64,000 bases of DNA from Haliotis cracherodii (Eukaryota). Of this stretch, positions 32,101-46,637 are shown piece by piece (the first letter of the stretch is position 1; each line of letters starts with the position of its first letter). Below the pieces are notes generated by a model. That model ran no database searches, was not told the origin of the DNA, and saw only the letters and a list, made by a program, of their open reading frames with translations. The stretch lies in the NCBI RefSeq assembly GCF_022045235.1, contig NW_027266289.1, positions 3,224,001-3,288,000 of the forward strand. The letters run 5' to 3'. A program made the translations under genes and the position numbers.

Positions 32101-34831
32101 GATGTTTTGCTTGTCTTCCTGGCCTCGGAGTTCTCGATTACTGATGTGGACATTGCCTCTCCCTTCTCTGACTCCTCTATGCTGGAGAGGACAAGCTGAT
32201 GGCGACCTACATGGGACTCAGGGAGATCCCGAGCTTCACTGCTGTGCAGGCTGCTGAGAGAGCTGACCCTGGAGAAGCAGACTGGCGTCCCCTCTTCACA
32301 GTACGTCTTGGGTTGGTCCATGGGCACGTCCCTCGATGTGGGGGAGTGGAAAGTCTGCTCAAGTGCTCCCTCTGCAGCCTCTTCCTCCTCAGGGTTGGTA
32401 CTGCTGGAGTCTTCGACCACAGCAGGCCCTGGACCAGATTTGGCTGTGCTAGAAGCACAATTTGGTTCTTCAAATGTGTTGCTGTAGTCCTTCGTTTCAT
32501 CCTCCGCTTCCTCACACTCTTTCTTAGGCTCAGCTTCTTCTTTGTATTGAATCTTGCCGGTGAGGTCTGTAAGTGATGTGGCAGTGGACAGGTATGGTGT
32601 CCCTTCTGTGCAGAATGTCTTCACCTGGTCATCCGTGAAGAAGCTGGGCATGTACTCATCCAGCCTCTCATTGGTCCTGCGTGCTTCCTCCAGCTTGCAG
32701 TCAGCACAGTGGGGGTCAGACTCCTCGTACGGCGTGCTGGAATCTGTCTCAGCCTCCTGGTATCGTACATTGGGTTCAGGCTGGTGATACCGTTGGCCTG
32801 GTTCAGCCTCCTGGTATCGAACATTGGCTTCAGGTTGGTGATACCGTTGGCCTGGGTCAGCCTCCTGGTATCTTACACTGTAGTTGATTGGTTGATCCTG
32901 AAACGTTTCTTCTACATTCTCTGCATAACGGAGACTGAAGTTGGTCGGCTGGTCGTCCATGTCGATGTCGGTCTCAGCGTATGCTCCATATTGCGTTGGG
33001 ATGCCCTGGTGAGCTCCAACATTGCGGTGACGAGGCTCGTACACGTTGCGAGCGTTGTGCGGTGCTGGGAAGCGGTTGTGCACCATGTTTGGCATAGCTC
33101 TTGGTACCATTGTGGAGCCAACAAAATTGCCAACTTTGACCTGAGGTCGATTATTAAGCTGGTCACCACGACTACCACCAGCTCCAACATCCTGGTACTT
33201 TAGGCTGTAGTTGATTGGCTGTTCATCTCCCTCCCCAGCTCCAGTGTCACCCACATCGACATTGTTCCTCTTGGGGCCAATGTACATCTCCTTAGCATTA
33301 GGGAGGTAGTTAAAAGGCTTCTTACCAAATTGTTCAATGAGGCTTCTTTGAGGACCATTGAAGTTACCTCCCTTGATCTGAGCGGACTGATATGCCAGAG
33401 CGCGAACATTGCGAGGACCTTGTTGAGATTCAGGTTCAGCTGTTGAGTTGGCTGGTAGACCAGCATGCATTGCAACTTCCTGCATCACTTGGAGTATCCG
33501 ACTGTTTGGTGCTCCTCCTATTCGGGTTCTGTCCACAGCGCACCCGTCTGAGTTGAACCTGTGCAATCCTCCTCCATCTCTCTTCCTCTCCAGGCTGCCA
33601 GCCTGACGTTCATGCAGTAGGCGTGAGCTCTTGGCCAGCATGGTGTGTGCCCGTGACCGGTCATGGGAGATGTCAGAGTGAGTGCTGCCCACGCTGTCCT
33701 GACTGCCAGACCGTGCAACCCTCTGTGGGGACCGCAGTTTGCCGTCCACTCCGGCGCTGTCCGTACTCCCTGACCTAGGGAACATGTGACCTCGCATCAT
33801 GGGTCGGCGAGGTTCTGTGTCGGCCACGGGGAACACCACGACGTTGTCCCCAGAGTACCGGCGTGTGTAGGCATTGTCCTTCTTGGTCTCAGTTGGACTG
33901 CTCCGCGGACTCTCCACATTCTCACAGGTTTCCGCCAGGTTTTCATCCAACTCCTGTTCTAGTGCTCTGACTTTCCTGGCATGAAGTCCTGGACGGTTCG
34001 ACCCAGAGACCCGGTCAAGGTCAAGGTTCTTCATGGCTGGGCGGGCTGATAGGAGATTCTTGAGGGCAGCAGCACTTCCCATGGATATCATCTTGTGTTT
34101 TGAGTGCACCAAGTTCCTCAGCATGCTGACTGCACCCATCTCCCACAAGGCCTGCTGGTCCTCCTGGCATCGGGCTGACAGGTTCCACAATGTCCCACAC
34201 GCGTTGCTCACAATCGTCAGGCTCGTGGAGCGCAGATGCTTGAGCAGGAGCTGCAGGCAGCTGTGTTGCCGCAACACCTTGCGGTAGTCCTCCCTCACGG
34301 CGATGTGACTGGACACATTGCGGAGGATGCCCCCGCCGTTCTCTATGATGGCGAGTGTCTTGGAGGGGCTCTTATAGGTGAGCATGCTGACCAGGAATTC
34401 CAGCGCCCCTGACACAGCACAGATGTCCGCCTTGTTCTCTGTGCAGTGGGCAGACAGGTTCCACAAGGCACTTAGAATACTTTTCAGTGTGGACTCCTTC
34501 TTCACTTGCATAGCAGCTGCCATCAGCGTGGTGACAGCATTCACCTCACGGAGAGTCTTTTTACTGGCGAGGTCGGCGCGCCAAGACAAGTTGCGTAACA
34601 CGCTTGCAGCTACCTGACACAGGTCTTCATTCGGGGAACCGAGCTGGGCCACCAGGCCCTCCATCGCACCCTTCATGGAGCACAGCAATGCCTTGTTGGT
34701 CCCATCGCCGAACGTCAGGTTGGTCAGAGCCATGCACGCGTATCGCCTCATGGTGATGTTGTATTGCTCTGTGGTAGGGCCGTGGGCGTCGTGGTCCACC
34801 TCCAGCAGCTCAGCGATAGCCTGCAGACCAC
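26136..34831 (-). CDS. APC: APC terminal giant coding exon (ARM repeats, 15R/20R/SAMP repeats, basic region, PDZ-binding end)
   Basis: Acceptor ttgttgcag|GTGGTCTG (AG at 34832-33). Uninterrupted ORF (2887-aa ORF in the track) ending CMVTTV, TGA at 26136-38. Confidence 0.97.
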
Positions 34832-37800: not shown

Positions 37801-40800
37801 CATCGGGGTGAGAATGTACGATGTTGTGCAGCGCTGCGGAGGCACGTGCTCGCGCTGCTTTACTTCCTCTTGTGTTGCCTAGCAACCCAGAATCCTTATC
37901 ACTCCCGTGCAGCAATTGGATCAATAGAGGAAGACACCCTGGAAACAGAAAAGAGTGAAATCAGCAACAGCAACGTCAGACAGGAACATAACTCAGGAGC
38001 AGCTTTGACAACCGCGCACATTCAGAACCACAGACTGATGTAAGCACACTGTCATCGCATGTTGAATGAATCCAGTTGAGCACAGCTCTGTGTGTCAGTT
38101 ACTGAAGCAGCAGCAGACTGTCTCATGGCTAAACAGCTAGACTCACCTGACTGTCTCATGGCTATACAGCTAGACTCACCTGACTGTCTCATGGCTATAC
38201 AGCTAGACTCACCTGACTGTCTCATGGCTATACAGCTAGACTCACCTGACTGTCTCATGGCTATACAGCTAGACTCACCTGACTGTCTCATGGCCATACA
38301 GCTAGACTCACCTGACTGTCTCATGGCTATACAGCTAGACTCACCTGTCTCATGGCTATACAGCTAGACTCACCTGACTGCCTCATGGCTATACAGCTAG
38401 ACTCACCTGTCTGTCTCATGGCTATACAGCTAGACCCACCTGACTGTCTCATGGCTATACAGCTAGACTCACCTGACTGTCTCATGGCTATACAGCTAGA
38501 CTCACCTGACTGTCTCATGGCTATACAGCCAGACTCACCTGACTGTCTCATGGCTATACAGCTAGACTCACCTGACTGTCTCATGGCTATACAGCTAAAC
38601 TCACCTGACTGTCTCATGGCTATACAGCTAGACTCACCTGACTGTCTCATGGCTATACAGCTGTCCTGGGAACTGGACATGGCCAGCAGGGTTCTACTCA
38701 TGTCGTCCTTGTCATGCGTGCCCAGCATCGACAGCAGCGAGTACACCATCTCCACCTGGTGGCAGAAACAAACATCAGCATACATAAGGGGGATGTATGT
38801 GCGGAGGTGATGAAAAGTGAGGTGACGTACACGAGATGATGACATGAGGGTGGGGTTGTATTGGGAGGTTACCTAGGAGGCGGCGTTGTATTGGGAGGTG
38901 ACCTAAGGGGTGGCATTGTATTGGGAGGTGACCCAGATGGCGGCGTATTGAAAAGTGACCTAGGAGGTGGCATTGTATTGGGAGGTGACCTAGATGGCGG
39001 CGTTGTATTGGGAGGTGACCTAAGGGGTGGCGTTGTATTGGGAAGTAACCTAGGAGGTGGTGTATTGGGAGGTGACCTAGATGGCAGCGTTGTATTGGGA
39101 GGTGACCTAAGGGGTGGCATTGTATTGGGAGGTGACCCAGATGGCGGCGTTGTATTGAGAAGTGACCTAGGAGGTGGCATTGTATTGGGAGGTGACCTAG
39201 GATGCAGGGTTGTATTGGGAGGTGACCTAGGAGGTAGTGTATTAGGAGATGACCTAGATGGCAGCGTTGTATTGGGAGGTGACCTAGGAGGTGGCGTTGT
39301 ATTGGGAGGTGACCTAGATGGCGGCGTTGTATTGGGAAGTGACCTAGGAGGTGGCGTTGTATTGTGAGGTGACCCAGATGGCGGCGTTGTATTGGGAAGT
39401 GACCTAGGATGCAGGGTTGTATTGGGAGGTGACCTAGCAGGTGGCGTTGTATTGGGAGGTGACCTGGATGGTGGCGTTGTATTGGGAAGTGACCTAGGAG
39501 GTGGCGTTGTATTGGGAGGTGACAGTTACCTTGGTGCCAAGTTGCTGGTGGGGATGCTGCTCGGTCCTGTCATCACTTGGAGCAGCGGCGGAGCTGTTGG
39601 TGCTGCTGGTGTTGGTGGAGTTGAAGCTCATGACGCTTGCAAGGTCATGACCTCTGAGGTCAGGGATCACCCCCTCTTCTCCATTTGGAAGCTCTGTAAG
39701 TATATGGAAGACAGGGTGTATAGCCTACCCTTCGCTATTGGCAAAGACTCGTGGTATATGGAAGAGAGGGTGTATAGCCTACCCTTCCCTATTGGCAAGG
39801 ACTCGTGGTATATGGAAGACAGGGTGTATAGCTTACCCTTCCCTATTGGCAAGGACTCGTGGTATATGGAAGACAGGGTGTACAACTTACCCTTCCCTAT
39901 TGGCCAGGACCCATGGTATATGGAAGACAGGGTGTATAACTTACCCTTCCCTATTGGCCAGGACCCGTGGTATATGGAAGACAGGGTGTTGTTCTGGGAG
40001 ATATTGGCCTGCAGGATGTCGGGGTTTTCCTGGATGATGACGTCCGACGTCTGTGTTGCTATGCTGATCATGACAGACCCGTGTGTCAGGCCAAACACAG
40101 ACTTGTCGCTGGTACGTGCGTTGTCAATGCCGGGCTTCGGGACAAAGATCTGAAGTGGACATCAGGAGGGAACTCAGATCAGGGAAACACAACATCAGGC
40201 TGTACTGGCAAACACTACACATGTAGCACTGACACCCCTCTGCCTTCAGCAGACATAGGACACAGACGAGACACACACAGTGCAAAGGACAAGACCGACA
40301 CAGGCATCTTCCCCAGGCAAGTGAGTTAACTGACTTTAAAAGTCCAGTTTCCACCCTTGCCGAACTTGGCTGGAATTACTGGGCTCGATCGTACTTTTAC
40401 CAGTAATGCCACTTCTTAGCCTCTCCTACGGACCAATCAGATTCCACCTCTCGTACCACTTGCGTTCGCTTCACACAAAATGGTGGGACCCAGTCAGGGT
40501 GATCTGATCGATAATCAAGATCTATATTGTGATAAAACGGGTCTTACATCGCGAAATGCATCAAATCACGTGAGCACCTTAACTAAAAACATGAAAAAAT
40601 TTGCAAAATATCTGCTGAAACGAGTTGGCGCTGTACATGTTTTGCAAATCCTGCAATCGACCAAAATCTGCACGACAGTTTACGAACTGGATTTCGATTT
40701 CAGTGTGCGATTTTGATTGGACTGTGCACAGACTCGTTAGTCCCGCCAAAATGTAACTCCATAATCCCAGCCTAGTTCGGCAAGGGTGGAAACTGGACTT

Positions 40801-43800
40801 TTAGGGTTAGTTAACACTCTTGCCCCGGGAAGATGGACACAGGAAGCAGGTAACTGACCTCTCCACACAGCGCTGTGTTGGTCGCCACATCCTTCACACA
40901 GCCTGGGTTCAGTCCCCGCTCCACGCTCATCTGCTGCTGCTTCAGTAACTGAAAGACAAGGGCTGTGCTCAACTGGCTTCATTCAACATGCAATGACAGT
41001 GTGTAGCATCTTTCTGTGGCTCTCAATGTGTGTGCTTGTTTATCAGTGGTTGTTAGTGTTTCTCTGTGTGTATGGTTGAGTGTGGTCGTGTGTTGTCGTT
41101 GGATGTGTGTGTGCTTGTCTATCAGTGGTTGTTAGTGTTTCTCTGTGTGCATGATTGAGTATGTTTGTGTGTTGTCTTTTGATGTGTGTGTGGTTGTGTG
41201 AGTGGTTGTGTGTGTGGTTATGTGTGTGGTTGTGTGTGTGGTTATGTGTGTGTGGTTGTGTGTGAGGTTGTGTGTGTGGTTATGTGTGTGTGGTTGTGTG
41301 TGNNNNNNNNNNNNNNNNNNNNNNNNNNNNNNNNNNNNNNNNNNNNNNNNNNNNNNNNNNNNNNNNNNNNNNNNNNNNNNNNNNNNNNNNNNNNNNNNNN
41401 NNNNNNNNNNNNNNNNNNNNNNNNNNNNNNNNNNNNNNNNNNNNNNNNNNNNNNNNNNNNNNNNNNNNNNNNNNNNNNNNNNNNNNNNNNNNNNNNNNNN
41501 NNNNNNNNNNNNNNNNNNNNNNNNNNNNNNNNNNNGTGGTTGTGTGTGTGGTTGTGTGAGTGGTTGTGTGTGTGGTTGTGTGTGGTTGTGTGTGTGGTTG
41601 TGTGTGTGGTTGTGTGTGTGGTTGTGTGTGAGGTTGTGTGAGTGGTTGTGTGTGTGGTTGTGTGAGTGGTTGTGTGTGTGGTTGTGTGAGTGGTTGTGTG
41701 TGTGGTTGTGTGTGGTTGTGTGTGTGGTTGTGTGAGTGGTTGTGTGAGTGGTTGTGTGTGTGGTTGTGTGTGGTTGTGTGTGTGGTTGTGTGAGTGGTTG
41801 TGTGAGTGGTTGTGTGTGTGGTTGTGTGTGTGGTTGTGTGTGTGGTTGTGTGTGGTTGTGTGTGTGGTTGTGTGAGTGGTTGTGTGAGTGGTTGTGTTTG
41901 TGGTTGTGTGTGTGGTTGTGTGTGGTTGTGTGTGTGGTTGTGTGTGGTTGTGTGTGTGGTTGTGTGAGTGGTTGTGTGAGTGGTTGTGTTTGTGGTTGTG
42001 TGTGTGGTTGTGTGTGGTTGTGTGTGGTTGTGTGTGTGGTTGTGTGTGTGGTTGTGTGTGTGGTTGTGTGTGTGGTTGTGTGAGTGGTTGTGTGTGTGGT
42101 TGTGTGAGTGGTTGTGTGTGTGGTTGTGTGTGTGGTTGTGTGTGTGGTTGTGTGAGTGGTTGTGTGTGTGGTTGTGTGAGTGGTTGTGTGAGTGGTTGTG
42201 TGTGTGGTTGTGTGAGTGGTTGTGTGTGTGGTTGTGTGTGTGGTTGTGTGTGTGGTTGTGTGTGTGGTTGTGTGTGTGGTTGTGTGTGTGGTTGTGTGAG
42301 TGGTTGTGTGTGTGGTTGTGTGAGTGGTTGTGTGTGTGGTTGTGTGTGTGGTTGTGTGTGGTTGTGTGTGTGGTTGTGTGAGTGGTTGTGTGAGTGGTTG
42401 TGTTTGTGGTTGTGTGTGTGGTTGTGTGTGGTTGTGTGTGTGGTTGTGTGTGGTTGTGTGTGTGGTTGTGTGAGTGGTTGTGTGAGTGGTTGTGTTTGTG
42501 GTTGTGTGTGTGGTTGTGTGTGGTTGTGTGTGTGGTTGTGTGAGTGGTTGTGTGTGTGGTTGTGTGTGTGGTTGTGTGAGTGGTTGTGTGAGTGGTTATG
42601 TGTGAAGGGTTATTTGAGTGGTTGTGTGTGTGGTGTGAGTGGTTGTGTGTGTGGTTGTGTGAGTGGTTATGTGAGTGGTTATGTAAGAGTCGTTATGTGT
42701 GAGTGGTTGTGTGAGTGGATATGTGTGAAGGGTCATGTGTATTGTCTGTGGTTAACAGTGTGTGGTTGGGTGTGTGGTCATGTTGTGTTGTGTCGTGTCA
42801 TGTCGTGTCATAGGGTGTTGTGTTGTGTTCACCTGCTGCTCTCGGTGGCGTTGTTGCAGCATCATCATCTCCGCCTCGATGTTGCGTATCCGCTGCAGAC
42901 GAGCCTCCTGTCGTTGAGCGATGTGTTCACTTGTCCCAAACTTCTCTGTCATGGCTTCCTCCAGTTTCTTGGCTTCGTACTCCACCTGTCTCCGAGTCAT
43001 GTCTGTCTGCAGGTTATACTGAAACACAGGACCACCAGATGTCTCATCTCAACCGCTCACCCAGACAACAACAACCACCCACCATAGAAGATGGAGACAC
43101 AGAACCCAATGAGTGAGTGATTGAGTTGGGTTTAACGCCGCTTTTAACAGTATTAATAGTACTCCAGTTATATCACAGCGTGACAGCTTAATGTGGGAGG
43201 AAAGCCCGAAGTGATGCAGGCCTCAGACGTTTACCACTTTGGTGAAACCCACGAGCACAGGTATGGCGCTGACAAACCTAGACACATAATTGGGGCGAAC
43301 CGGGATTCGAACCCATAATCATAGGTTTCTGGCGTACCCAAGGGACGCAACTCTGCACAGCGAATCGCGGCGCCTTAGACAACTGGGCCACCCGTGCCCA
43401 CAGAACCCAATGACATACAGTTTGTAAATTAGACAACAGGATCATTGCTTTCTTGCTTGTCTGGTGTCCACAGGACTCCAGCTGTATGACATGGGCATGT
43501 ATGTAATTCAATCTGGAAAAGACAATCCAGTGATTGGTTGTTTGTTTGTGTGTTGTTTAACGCCGCACTCAGCAATATTCCAGCTATATGACAGCGGTCT
43601 GTAAATAATCAAGTCTGGACCAGACAATCCAGTGATTAATATCATGACCATCGATCCACGCAATTGAGATCGATGACATGCATGAACCAAGTAAGCGAGC
43701 CTGACCACCCAATCCCGTTAGTCGCCTTTTACGACAAGCATAGTCACCTTTTACGGCAAGCAAGGGTTCCAGTGATTGATGTTATGAGCAACAATTGACC

Positions 43801-46637
43801 CTGCTGGGGTACGATAACAGGAAATACAGAAGACCAATGTGGCAACCAATGGCTTATCAGAAACTGTACTGGGAAGAGCAATGTGGCATCCAATGGCTTA
43901 TAAACTGTCCTGAGAAGGGCAATGTGGCATCCAATGGCTTATCATAAACAGTACAGGGAAGATCAATGTGGCATCCATCCAATGGCTTATCAGAAACTGT
44001 AAAGGGAAGAACAATTTGGTAACCAAACTATGGCTTATCATAAACTGTACTGAGAAGGGCAATGTGGCAACCAATCGATGGCTTATCATAAACTGTACTG
44101 AGAAGGGCATTGTGGCAACCAATCGATGGCTTATCATAAACTGTACTGAGAAGGGCAATGTGGCAACCAATCGATGGCTTATCATAAACTGTACTGAGAA
44201 GGCAATGTGGCATCCAATCGATGGCTTATCAGAAACTGTACTGAGAAGGCAATGTGGCATCCAATTGATGGCTTATCAGAAACTGTACTGAGAAGGGCAA
44301 TGTGGCATCCAATCGATGGCTTATCATAAACTGTACTGAGAAGGCAATGTGGCAACCAATCGACGGCTTATCAGAAACTGTACTGAGAAGAACAATGTGG
44401 CATCCAATCGATGGCTTATCAGAAACTGTACTTAGAAGGGCAATGTGGCATCCAATCGATGGCTTATCATAAACTGTACTGAGAAGAACAATGTGGCAAC
44501 CATTCGATGGCTTCATCAGAAACTGTACCCAGAAGGGCAATGTGGCATCCAATCGATGGCTTATCAGAAACTGTACTTAGAAGGGCAATGTGGCATCCAA
44601 TCGATGGCTTATCAGAAACTGTACTTAGAAGAACAATGTGGCATCCAATCGATGGCTTATCAGAAACTGTACTGAGAAGGGCAATGTGGCATCCAATCGA
44701 TGGCTTATCAGAAACTGTACTGAGAAGAACAATGTTGCAACTAATGGCTTATCAGAAACTGTACTGGAATGACACTGGCGAGACACCAGCGAGACACTGG
44801 TGAGACACTGAGAACAGCACCTGATGACCAAACGGAACCAGGCGTTATGAGGTATCCACACAGATTGTCAAACTTACTGTTTCCGAGAGCGGAAGATTCT
44901 CCAGCTTCTGTGACAAAATCTCCAGCTGCTGGAAGAAGCGTTCTCTAAGACTGTCCTCCGTCTGTATCTCCCGCATCAACGCATTCCTGCAAACACATCT
45001 CACACATCAACGTATTCCTTCAAACACATCTTACACATCAACGTATTCCTGCAAACACATCAACATATTCCTGCAAACACATCTCACACATCAACATATT
45101 CCTGCAAACACATCTCACACATCAACGTATTCCTGCAAACACATCTCACACATCAACATATTCCTGCAAACACATCTCACACATCAACATATTCCTGCAA
45201 ACACATCTTGCACATCAACATATTCCTGCAAACACATCTCACACATCAACGTATTCCTGCAAACACATCTCACACATCAACATATTCCTGCAAACACATC
45301 TCGCACATCAACGTATTCCTGCAAACACATCTCACACATCAATGTATTCCTGCAAACACATCTCACACATCAACGTATTCCTGCAAACACATCTCACACA
45401 TCAACGCATTCCTGCAAACACATCTCACACATCAATGTATTCCTGCAAACACATCTCACACATCAACGCATTCCTGCAAACACATCTCACACATCAACGT
45501 ATTCCTGCAAACACATCTCGCACATCAACGTATTCCTGCAAACACATCTTACACATCAATGTATTCCTGCAAACACATCTCACACATCAACGTATTCCTG
45601 CAAACACATCTCACACATCAACGTATTCCTGCAAACACATCTCACACATCAACATATTCCTGCAAACACATCTCACACATCAACATATTCCTGCAAACAC
45701 ATCTCACACATCAACATATTCCTGCAAACACATCTCACACATCAACATATTCCTGCAAACACATCTCACACATCAACATATTCCTGCAAACACATCTCAC
45801 ACATCAACGCATTCCTGCAAACACATCTCACACATCAACGCATTCCTGCAAACACATCTCACACATCAACATATTTCTGCAAACACATCTCACACATCAA
45901 CGTATTCCTGCAAACACATCTCACACATCAACGTATTCCTGCAAACACATCTCACACATCAACGCATTCCTGCAAACACATCTCACATATCAACCTGCAA
46001 TCACATCTCACACATCAACCTGCAATCACATCTCACATATCAACCTGCAATCACATCTCACATATCAACCTGCAATCACATCTCACATATCAACCTGCAA
46101 ACACATCTCACACATCAACCTGCAAACACATCTCAGATACCAGCATGTATCACATCAGTACACATGTACATTATTAGTAATGGCTGATACTGGCGGTATA
46201 CGTCTCATATTAAGTCAGTAACAACCATCTTGGATTATTAATGACAGTATACAGGCTCATGTGTGTGTGGTTAGTCCTGCTCTCTGATTGGTCAATCTCA
46301 TTTAGAGGCATGGTAAATGTTGCATATCTGACCTCTCCAAGTCAAGGTTGTGCAGCTGGGCATAGATCTCACTTAGAGGCATGGTAAATGTTGTATATTT
46401 CACCTCTCCAAGTCAAGATTGTGCAGCTGGACATAGATCTCACTTAGAGAGATGGTAAATGTTGTATATCTCACCTCTCCAAGTCAAGATTGTGCAGCTG
46501 GGCATAGATCTCATGTTCTGCATGGGTGAAGTGGCCGTTTGGGGAGTTGACCTCGGACTTGAGACATGTGACGTTGTCCACAGCATCGGCCCAGCTCTCG
46601 TTCTCATCTCGCTCTCCAAGGTCGTCTGTACTCAAGT
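26136..46637 (-). CDS. APC: Adenomatous polyposis coli protein (APC) gene, multi-exon. Exons: 46475-46637, 44878-44986, 42833-43018, 40859-40948, 39945-40149, 39530-39693, 38638-38755, 37672-37938, 36734-36835, 26136-34831
   Basis: All exons have GT-AG boundaries and compatible phases (10,100 nt in total). Near-identity to vertebrate APC motifs: LQTDMTRRQVEYEA, LGTKVEMVYSLLSMLGTHDKDDMSRTLLAMSSSQDSC, LMKLSFDEEHRHA, GGLQAIAELL. ARM repeats, 15-aa, 20-aa and SAMP repeats, and a C-terminal PDZ-binding VTTV are present. Confidence 0.97.
34868..36435. repeat. 22-bp minisatellite filling the last APC intron
   Basis: Unit agaccatctggaatgtacagtt. Confidence 0.95.
35815..36166 (-). mobile_element. tRNA-derived SINE, family A, inserted in the 22-bp minisatellite
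   Basis: Full length, 12-bp TSD agatcatctaga. Confidence 0.92.
36734..36835 (-). CDS. APC: APC exon (ARPSDIDHHPGPAIAALMKLSFDEEHRHAICTLG)
   Basis: Acceptor ttgcag|cag (NAGNAG), donor CTAG|gtaag, phase 1-1, matches the start of the APC ARM domain. Confidence 0.93.
36868..37640. repeat. 15/21-bp minisatellite filling an APC intron
   Basis: Variants of tctacccacaggacg. Confidence 0.95.
37672..37938 (-). CDS. APC: APC exon (GCLPLLIQLLHG...RVLRLLEQIRAHC...PGSG)
   Basis: Acceptor tgtttccag|GG, donor GGAG|gtaggc, 267 nt, conserved APC pre-ARM sequence. Confidence 0.93.
38115..38662. repeat. 33-bp minisatellite, 16 donor-containing units, spanning an APC donor site
   Basis: Minus-strand unit agctgtatagccatgagacagtcag|gtgagtct. 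Confidence 0.97.
38638..38755 (-). CDS. APC: APC exon (VEMVYSLLSMLGTHDKDDMSRTLLAMSSSQDSCIAMRQSG)
   Basis: Acceptor ccaccag|GTG, donor TCAG|gtgagt, almost identical to the vertebrate APC segment. Confidence 0.95.
38855..39523. repeat. 30-bp minisatellite filling an APC intron
   Basis: Unit gttgtattgggaggtgacctaggaggtggc. Confidence 0.95.
39530..39693 (-). CDS. APC: APC exon (LPNGEEG...DLASVMSFNSTN...QLGTK)
   Basis: Acceptor cttacag|AG, donor AAG|gtaact. ASVMS...LGTK is homologous to vertebrate ASVLS...HLGTK. Confidence 0.88.
39700..39989. repeat. 54-bp minisatellite, ~5 copies, spanning an APC donor and making up the whole intron
   Basis: Donor GTs at 39944, 39890, 39836, 39782 and 39728. 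Confidence 0.95.
39945..40149 (-). CDS. APC: APC exon (IFVPKPGIDN...ISIATQTS...SWPIGK)
   Basis: Acceptor cacttcag|ATC, donor AAGG|gtaagt, phase 0-1 fits its neighbours. Not conserved with vertebrates. Confidence 0.75.
40305..40835. mobile_element. Same MITE family in the opposite orientation, in an APC intron
   Basis: Termini catcttccc...gggaagatg, TSD gacacagg. Confidence 0.88.
40859..40948 (-). CDS. APC: APC 90-nt symmetric exon (LLKQQQMSVERGLNPGCVKDVATNTALCGE)
   Basis: Acceptor tgtctttcag|TTA, donor GAG|gtcagt, phase 0-0, open frame. Confidence 0.72.
41180..42720. repeat. GT-rich 10/12-bp simple repeat containing an assembly gap
   Basis: Unit gtggttgtgtgt. Confidence 0.95.
41303..41535. 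other. Assembly gap (233 N)
   Basis: Run of n characters. Confidence 1.
42833..43018 (-). CDS. APC: APC exon (YNLQTDMTRRQVEYEAKKLEEAM...EQQ), N-terminal coiled coil
   Basis: Acceptor tgtttcag|TAT, donor CAG|gtgaac, homologous to vertebrate FSLQTDMTRRQLEYEA. Confidence 0.95.
43113..43398 (-). mobile_element. SINE family D with a tRNA-Leu/Ser-like head
   Basis: Head ggtggcccagttgtctaaggcg...gggttcgaatccc, (actc)n tail, 15-bp TSD cacagaacccaatga. Confidence 0.8.
43537..43767 (-). mobile_element. SINE family B, 5'-truncated
   Basis: TSD tccagtgattg. Confidence 0.85.
43835..44766. repeat. 47-48-bp minisatellite
   Basis: Unit gcaatgtggcatccaatcgatggcttatcagaaactgtactgagaagg. Confidence 0.95.
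44878..44986 (-). CDS. APC: APC exon (RNALMREIQTEDSLRERFFQQLEILSQKLENLPLSET)
   Basis: Acceptor gtttgcag|G, donor ACA|gtaagt, 109 nt, phase 2-0, homologous to vertebrate RSLLL...SLPLTEN. Confidence 0.92.
44973..46140. repeat. 31-bp minisatellite (25-bp in distal units), >30 copies, spanning an APC acceptor
   Basis: Minus-strand unit tgtgagatgtgtttgcag|GAATRYGTTGATG. Confidence 0.95.
46298..46512. repeat. 71-bp tandem triplication spanning an APC donor
   Basis: GT copies at 46474, 46403 and 46332, each preceded by the exon end cttgacttggagag. Confidence 0.9.
46475..46637 (-). CDS. APC: APC exon (LSTDDLGERDENES...IYAQLHNLDLER)
   Basis: Acceptor ttccctgtag|AC, donor AG|gtgaga, phase 1-2. The end aligns with vertebrate YLEELEKER. 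Confidence 0.85.

What the first reader, a model, noticed from the sequence alone, without database searches (positions are those of the whole stretch)
39694..39989. An APC intron built entirely from exon-end tandem duplicates, with five in-frame donors
The 251-nt intron consists only of 54-nt units (about 45 nt of exon end plus gtaag/gtagg...). Its polypyrimidine tract (ctgtcttccatatac, before ttacag) is itself a copy of exon sequence. All five donors are phase 1 and stop-free, each adding 18 aa (e.g. GKLYTLSSIYHESLPIGK). The last would leave only a 35-nt intron. This resembles the tandem-duplication model of intron gain or expansion, caught in progress.
Basis: partly seen in the sequence, partly recalled or inferred. 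Interest (0 to 1): 0.7.

Follow-up and report, generated by a model that had tools for sequence, protein, structure and literature searches.

The report
Splice-donor repeat fills abalone APC intron
An old intron of the abalone APC gene is made almost wholly of copies of the exon end before it, but three of four transcript assemblies splice at the first signal, so it is likely a tolerated repeat of a kind known from lancelets and humans, not a newborn intron.

Summary
On the minus strand, abalone APC intron 39944-39694 (251 nt) has 245 nt inside a 54-nt array (45 nt exon end plus 9 nt donor), five in-frame donors, and a pyrimidine tract copied from the exon. Intron gain is refuted: plain phase-1 introns sit at this position in all 3 other animal loci that carry the motif. 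Contigs of 3 of 4 RNA-like runs join at the first donor; the fourth is ambiguous. A minor ladder is not excluded. The array and its 3' end occur in 4 of 4 DNA runs under four organism labels. It is a splice-junction minisatellite ('mirage'), known from amphioxus and human F7, CBS and 6-16. This scan found the type before at other loci of this genome, and three more occur in this gene. Unit length of 3n is not clearly enriched (4 of 7 versus 34%, p=0.18). Two loose ends remain: the acceptor's reliance on an exon copy, and a Gigantopelta-like protein read-through showing similar ~54-nt copies at the same donor.

The parts
39945..40149 (-). APC coding exon (205 nt, IFVPKPG...YHGSWPIGK); its last 45 nt (39989-39945) are the first repeat unit's exonic part
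   Evidence: covered by one contig with both neighbouring exons in 3 of 4 RNA-like runs
39694..39944 (-). 251-nt phase-1 GT-AG intron, 245 nt of it in the array
   Evidence: joint 39693-39945 in X13, X14, X16
39700..39989 (-). 54-nt tandem array, 5.4 copies (45 nt exon end + 9 nt donor); units differ by 1-9 nt in a 5'-to-3' gradient
39939..39944 (-). Authentic donor (GTAAGT)
39885..39890 (-). Pseudo-donor 2 (GTAAGT); would leave 197 nt; the ambiguous joint of run X12 was placed here
39723..39836 (-). Pseudo-donors 3, 4, 5 at 39836, 39782, 39728 (would leave 143, 89, 35 nt); donor 5 has a second version in runs X5 and X10 (changes at 39721, 39724, 39725)
39700..39719 (-). Terminal partial unit, 20/20 copy of exon sequence; the only pyrimidine tract before the acceptor
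   Evidence: covered in 4 of 4 DNA runs
39694..39699 (-). TTACAG acceptor, the only non-repeat part of the intron; its AG is in register with an AG in units 3-5
39530..39693 (-). Downstream APC exon (164 nt, ELPNG...QLGTK); first 19 nt match the unit's continuation at 11-12 of 19
38116..38662 (-). Sister donor mirage in the same gene (33-nt unit, 15 junction copies)
46295..46513 (-). Sister donor mirage (71-nt unit, 2 junction copies, not 3n)
44966..46019 (-). Sister acceptor mirage (31-nt unit, 32 junction copies, not 3n)

Best explanation
This is an ancient APC intron whose sequence is now almost all a locus-born 54-nt minisatellite spanning the exon's splice donor; the transcripts assembled in three of four runs use the first donor, so the four downstream copies are likely silent or minor decoys. 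Inferred history: (1) a 54-nt piece across the donor was duplicated by slippage or unequal exchange, as at other junctions of this repeat-rich genome; (2) it expanded and probably still changes in copy number; (3) a deletion or conversion, possibly guided by the in-register likeness between the unit and the acceptor region, removed the old intron body and left 6 nt of its 3' end, so an exon copy now serves as pyrimidine tract; (4) the most upstream donor wins, as shown for human F7, which keeps the protein unchanged and lets the array persist.
For: Shown: anatomy. Unit core unique to this locus. Phase-1 G|GT intron after the YHGxW motif in 3 of 3 motif-bearing loci among 10 fetched, without exon copies (L002 698 nt, L006 213 nt, L009). 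Matching read-through in unnamed proteins P0130, P0140, P0142, P0147, P0151 (intron reading inferred). First-donor joint with 166 letters on the short side in X13, X14, X16, three studies. All 4 H. cracherodii and 3 H. asinina RefSeq isoforms that include the region read WPIGK-ELPNG. Same habit at 3 of 9 donors and 1 of 9 acceptors of this gene; 8 of 9 introns are 54-98% tandem array. Downstream exon start to the DxASVMSF motif is 16 residues in abalone, Gigantopelta, Patella and Liolophura (counted by hand), so it looks ancestral. Literature: PMC1557585 (first donor chosen), PMC3087553 (mirages do not disturb splicing).
Against: Run X12 (organism D) lists no joint at 39945. Its joint is placed at donor 2 with only 30 letters on that side, and it has array contigs at depth 4-16, almost all resembling units 1-2. 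Contigs drop rare forms, so minor downstream use is untested. No locus with the pre-array abalone intron was found, so step 3 is inferred. P0130 shows similar ~54-nt exon-end copies at the same donor in a distant gastropod, which a young neutral array does not predict. RefSeq models may rest on this same assembly.
Confidence: 0.72

Rival explanations
1. Working ladder: downstream donors are used in some species or tissues and add 18-aa copies of the conserved LSSIYHGxWP motif to APC.
For: All products are in frame and stop-free. Donor 2 is identical to donor 1. X12 has its joint placed at 39891, and its array depth lies almost wholly on unit 1-2-like bins, against 24% on the 3' bins in DNA run X11 of the same label. 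Human 6-16 and CBS use two proximal pseudo-sites (PMC1557585, Introduction).
Against: First donor only in 3 of 4 runs and 7 of 7 isoforms. The X12 side is 30 nt, under the tool's 31-letter bar, and units 1 and 2 differ by one base there, so an exon allele explains it. About 10% unspliced RNA over a long array would give X12's excess depth (20.6 versus 216). No clear 3n excess: 7 of 13 candidates p=0.11, 4 of 7 validated p=0.18.
Confidence: 0.12
2. Old, self-renewing mirage: the exon-copy intron arose before abalones and neomphaline snails split, is kept because the acceptor needs the exon-derived pyrimidine tract, and is re-homogenised from the conserved exon, which fixes the ~54-nt period.
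For: P0130 (63/70 identical to the Gigantopelta aegis exon) reads on into copies of its own exon end: 14/18 in frame (9/18 or better in 0 of 20000 shuffles) and 6/8, 6/8, 4/8 in the shifted frame (5/8 or better in 53 of 20000). Spacings are 55 and 53 nt, then 55 to the 4/8 match (the last by hand). Periods 53-56 are 18 of 421 arrays. One copy has the same G-to-E change as abalone units 3-5. The terminal copy is 20/20 and is present in 4 of 4 DNA runs.
Against: One protein, no DNA, acceptor unseen. Copies track each lineage's own exon, as independent duplication would. Boundary copies also arose at other APC junctions in L003, L004 and L006, so recurrence is common. P0130 was retrieved with a repeat-containing query.
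Confidence: 0.12
3. Acceptor reborn in a unit: a new AG arose in the last repeat, the old acceptor was deleted, and the first ~6 codons of the downstream exon derive from the repeat in another frame.
For: AG in register with the AG of units 3-5. 11-12 of 19 in-register match; 11 or more occurs at 22 of 9681 background positions.
Against: Over 54 possible registers the chance is about 0.12 (by hand). Exon-start length equals that in Gigantopelta, Patella and Liolophura, and its residues are conservative changes (E/D, L/M) from Gigantopelta's. H. asinina has the same residues.
Confidence: 0.03
4. Intron gain by tandem duplication of an AGGT-bearing exon segment (Rogers model).
For: Intron sequence has an identified exonic source.
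Against: Intron present at this position and phase in L002, L006, L009. 251 is not a multiple of 54. The acceptor and the next exon's start are not copies of the donor AGGT.
Confidence: 0.01

Closest known systems
Amphioxus 'mirages' (Adh3, BflGb6, BflGb9; PMC3087553, passages read; the original Adh3 paper was not read)
   Same: Minisatellite-like tandem copies of an exon-intron boundary; many units carry splice signals; normal splicing is kept; units of 10-160 bp; proposed there as a route to intron gain.
   Different: Here the array is 98% of a short intron and supplies the pyrimidine tract; the passages read describe no such case. Mollusc, not chordate.
Human F7 IVS7 37-bp VNTR, with 6-16 intron 2, CBS IVS13, lamin B2, PDGF intron 4 (PMC1557585: abstract, Introduction and Discussion read)
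   Same: First monomer spans the donor; identical pseudo-donors follow; the most upstream is used (two more in 6-16 and CBS).
   Different: The F7 unit is mostly intronic (4 exon + 33 intron nt); this one is mostly exonic (45 + 9) and 3n, so every pseudo-donor is in frame. Scanning was tested in mammalian cells, not molluscs.
[quoted passage not shown]
   Same: Intron sequence copied from exon; in ATP2A1 the duplicated exon segment also supplies a pyrimidine tract (per PMC4974935).
   Different: No new intron position, and donor and acceptor are not two copies of one AGGT.

Membership tests
Splice-junction minisatellite (mirage / F7-type VNTR) | Tandem array whose first unit spans an exon-intron boundary | tested here: met
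Splice-junction minisatellite (mirage / F7-type VNTR) | Splice signal reiterated in the units | tested here: met
   4 extra GT donors at 54-nt spacing
Splice-junction minisatellite (mirage / F7-type VNTR) | Main splicing at the authentic site | tested here: met
   3 of 4 RNA-like runs, 1 ambiguous; 7 of 7 RefSeq isoforms covering the region
Splice-junction minisatellite (mirage / F7-type VNTR) | Length variation between alleles or species | tested here: inconclusive
   Summed contig depth over the array relative to exon: 21.5, 30.5, 80, 216 in X5, X10, X9, X11. The tool states depth is no copy number, and no contig spans the array.
Splice-junction minisatellite (mirage / F7-type VNTR) | Concerted evolution inside the cluster | tested here: inconclusive
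   Neighbours are most alike (units 3-4 differ by 1 nt; unit 5 differs from 1-2 by 7-9), five units only
[quoted passage not shown] | Orthologues lack the intron | tested here: not met
   read-through proteins
[quoted passage not shown] | Donor and acceptor are two copies of one AGGT; a whole number of units is removed | tested here: not met
   251 = 4 x 54 + 35; the acceptor is TTACAG|AGC
[quoted passage not shown] | Identified exonic source of the intron sequence | tested here: met
Used pseudo-donor ladder (6-16 / CBS type) | Transcripts spliced at downstream copies | tested here: inconclusive

The most novel reading that the evidence does not exclude
The intron's 3' splice site depends on a copy of its own upstream exon, and that dependence has kept a ~54-nt exon-end repeat alive at this donor since abalones and Gigantopelta-like snails split: a minisatellite renewed from a conserved coding template, possibly with downstream donors used in the relative with the longest array.
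Probability: 0.13. Interest if true: 0.6.

Novelty: new member of a known kind. Interest (0 to 1): 0.24.

Why it matters
As it stands it is a compact, extreme example of a known repeat type: five competing in-frame donors in 251 nt make a simple test of first-donor choice in a mollusc, free of nonsense-mediated decay. It also shows that an intron made of exon copies need not be a new intron, a caution for intron-gain screens. If the gastropod parallel is shared descent, it would show a repeat held for a very long time by a splice signal's need for exon sequence.

Tried and rejected
Assembly artefact: rejected; 4 of 4 DNA runs hold array pieces and the 3' junction. Dispersed repeat family: rejected. 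Protein searches for ladder-bearing APC: none among 7995 longer candidates (limited to 266-2000 aa, so full-length APC was out of range; weak), 1 hit among 4980 near-length candidates (P0130). Of 22 hits, only P0001, P0130, P0140, P0142, P0147 and P0151 carry the APC motif; 10 more were viewed in full or in part and look like unrelated repeat proteins, and 6 were not viewed. Metagenome scan with this exon: 0 of 208 candidate stretches confirmed. No holder is on record as RNA; the four 'RNA?' runs are taken as RNA because their contigs join exons. No cover of 39694-39758 in RNA runs is not used as evidence. 3n-enrichment test: not significant and underpowered. The de novo finder is rough: 4 of its 8 calls in the window were false (all acceptor type); 4 of 11 non-APC donor candidates had a Pfam hit; one validated case (L031) came and dropped out, reason not checked. 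Literature searches for a mollusc report found nothing relevant (one search also blank, one paper). The library lacks most subscription papers, and no supplements were read. The search of earlier findings by sequence, words and relatives gave nothing. No branch point could be assigned by eye.

Full report
Gene and anatomy. The large open frame 34880-26136 matches H. cracherodii APC 100% and H. asinina 99% over the 420 residues scored and carries Pfam APC_r, Arm, APC_15aa and SAMP. Ten exons by coordinates give 3365 of 3365 residues of RefSeq isoform X1. The finding is the intron 39944-39694 on the minus strand. TRF gives period 54, 5.4 copies, 94% matches. Each unit is 45 nt of exon end plus 9 nt of intron start. 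The intron is 4 units plus 35 nt: a donor copy, a 20/20 exon copy and TTACAG. All five donors give stop-free products; intron retention stops 25 nt into the next exon. The unit core has 5 exact matches in G000, all here.

Is the intron new? No. A scan with the next conserved exon fetched 10 loci. Three carry the YHGxW motif, and in all three a phase-1 G|GT follows it within two codons of the abalone position: L002 (1684-2381) and L009 (donor 1542), annelid-like by best protein match, and L006 (1133-1345, AT-rich, 213 nt), bivalve-like. None has a second motif copy or a matching tandem array in that intron. Five unnamed proteins run off the exon into G at the same point, three of them into GK, which I read as intron read-through. 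The Rogers features given in PMC3443670 and PMC4974935 (passages) fail: the intron is no whole number of units and the acceptor is no copy of the donor AGGT.

Which donor is used? I laid 4 of the 8 runs guessed to be RNA. X13, X14 and X16 (labels A, E, B; three studies) each have one contig that joins 39693 to 39945 with 166 letters on the short side and continues into both neighbouring exons, so the exon is transcribed. X12 (label D) has its joint placed at 39891 with 30 letters on that side, below the bridging bar, where units 1 and 2 differ by one base. It also has array contigs at depth 4-16. Unspliced RNA at about 10% over a long array would give that excess (20.6 versus 216 in DNA run X11). 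Against this, X12's array depth falls almost only on unit 1-2-like bins, while 24% of X11's falls on the 3' bins; the two are different samples. I leave X12 unresolved. All 7 RefSeq isoforms that include the region (4 of 6 H. cracherodii, 3 of 5 H. asinina) use the first donor; these models may rest on this same assembly. Contigs drop rare forms, so a minor ladder is not excluded.

Age and variation. I laid 4 of 11 DNA runs. X5, X9, X10 and X11 (labels B, C, A, D) all run from the downstream exon through TTACAG into the terminal exon copy and then break into short, deep contigs. 39694-39720 is unchanged in X5 and X10; X9 and X11 have at most 1 and 2 unlisted differences on those contigs. The last donor has a second version in X5 and X10 (39721, 39724, 39725). 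Summed depth differs tenfold between runs, a hint of copy-number difference only.

Context. In this gene 3 of 9 donors and 1 of 9 acceptors are repeated in the intron, with units of 71, 54, 33 and 31 nt, and 8 of 9 introns are 54-98% tandem array. In 1.46 Mb of contig C26, 421 arrays of period 15-200 cover 312,537 bases; 97 of 289 with period 25 or more are 3n. Donor-junction arrays are 3n in 7 of 13 candidates (p=0.11) and 4 of 7 validated cases (p=0.18). So the in-frame property needs no special cause, though the test is weak. Earlier notes of this scan report the same type at other loci of this genome; I did not re-test those loci. They gave me the term 'mirage' and PMC3087553.

How the old intron body was lost (inferred). 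The acceptor AG is in register with an AG in units 3-5, and the next exon's first 19 nt match the unit's continuation at 11-12 of 19, against 22 of 9681 background positions at 11 or more. Some register among 54 would reach this about 12% of the time (by hand), so a chance likeness that guided a deletion or conversion is enough. A repeat-derived exon start is less likely, because its length and residue types match other molluscs.

The loose end. P0130 is 63/70 identical to the Gigantopelta aegis exon and reads on into copies of its own exon end, 55 and 53 nt apart, one at 14/18 residues (0 of 20000 shuffles reach 9/18). Periods of 53-56 are 18 of 421 arrays here. This is either a repeat origin at the same donor or an old array renewed from the exon. 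Boundary copies at other APC junctions in L003, L004 and L006 show that recurrence is common. No DNA for P0130 could be obtained. That abalones and neomphaline snails split hundreds of millions of years ago is recalled, not from a call.

Comparison and verdict. It works like, and passes the tested defining features of, a splice-junction minisatellite: amphioxus mirages (PMC3087553, passages) and human F7, 6-16, CBS, lamin B2, PDGF (PMC1557585, abstract, Introduction, Discussion). It fails membership of tandem-duplication intron gain. Searches found no mollusc report, in a library that lacks most subscription papers. Interest 0.24; new member of a known kind, notable only for filling a whole intron and lending its acceptor a pyrimidine tract.

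Noticed in passing
window 40930-41039 and 38008-38117: About 110 nt around the acceptor of exon 40948-40859 recur as an inverted copy in the intron 2.8 kb downstream, directly after the 33-nt array; the two could pair in the pre-mRNA and cover that acceptor.
   Followed up: partly
window 44987-46474: One APC intron has a donor mirage (71 nt) at one end and an acceptor mirage (31 nt, 32 copies) at the other.
   Followed up: partly
window 38116-38662: 33-nt donor mirage, 15 copies, also 3n; the same donor has exon-end copies in L004 (about 690-765, with GT) and L006 (about 2052-2138, GT lost).
   Followed up: partly
L003 404-630: 126-nt duplication of an APC acceptor plus exon start in an annelid-like locus: junction copies are not confined to abalone and amphioxus.
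   Followed up: no
window 39721-39749: Two versions of the last unit: X5 (label B) and X10 (label A) share one, while the window, X9 (C) and X11 (D) share the other at 39721-39725; a shared polymorphism, conversion or a label problem.
   Followed up: no
window about 40320-40400 and 40760-40830: Inverted ends in the only array-free APC intron, MITE-like by eye; not tested.
   Followed up: no
L029 4683-5903 and 8300-8851, L031 2487-2740, L042 7241-7716: Further donor mirages after Pfam-supported exons: three in fibronectin type III exons (39, 47, 36 nt) and one in a Leo1-like exon (67 nt).
   Followed up: partly
window 32749-32872: A second, unrelated 54-nt repeat (2.3 copies) inside the large APC coding exon.
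   Followed up: no
window 39960-39989 (exon end): The copied segment encodes a YHGxWP motif that recurs in mollusc, annelid and arthropod APC and has no Pfam match; its role is not known to me.
   Followed up: no
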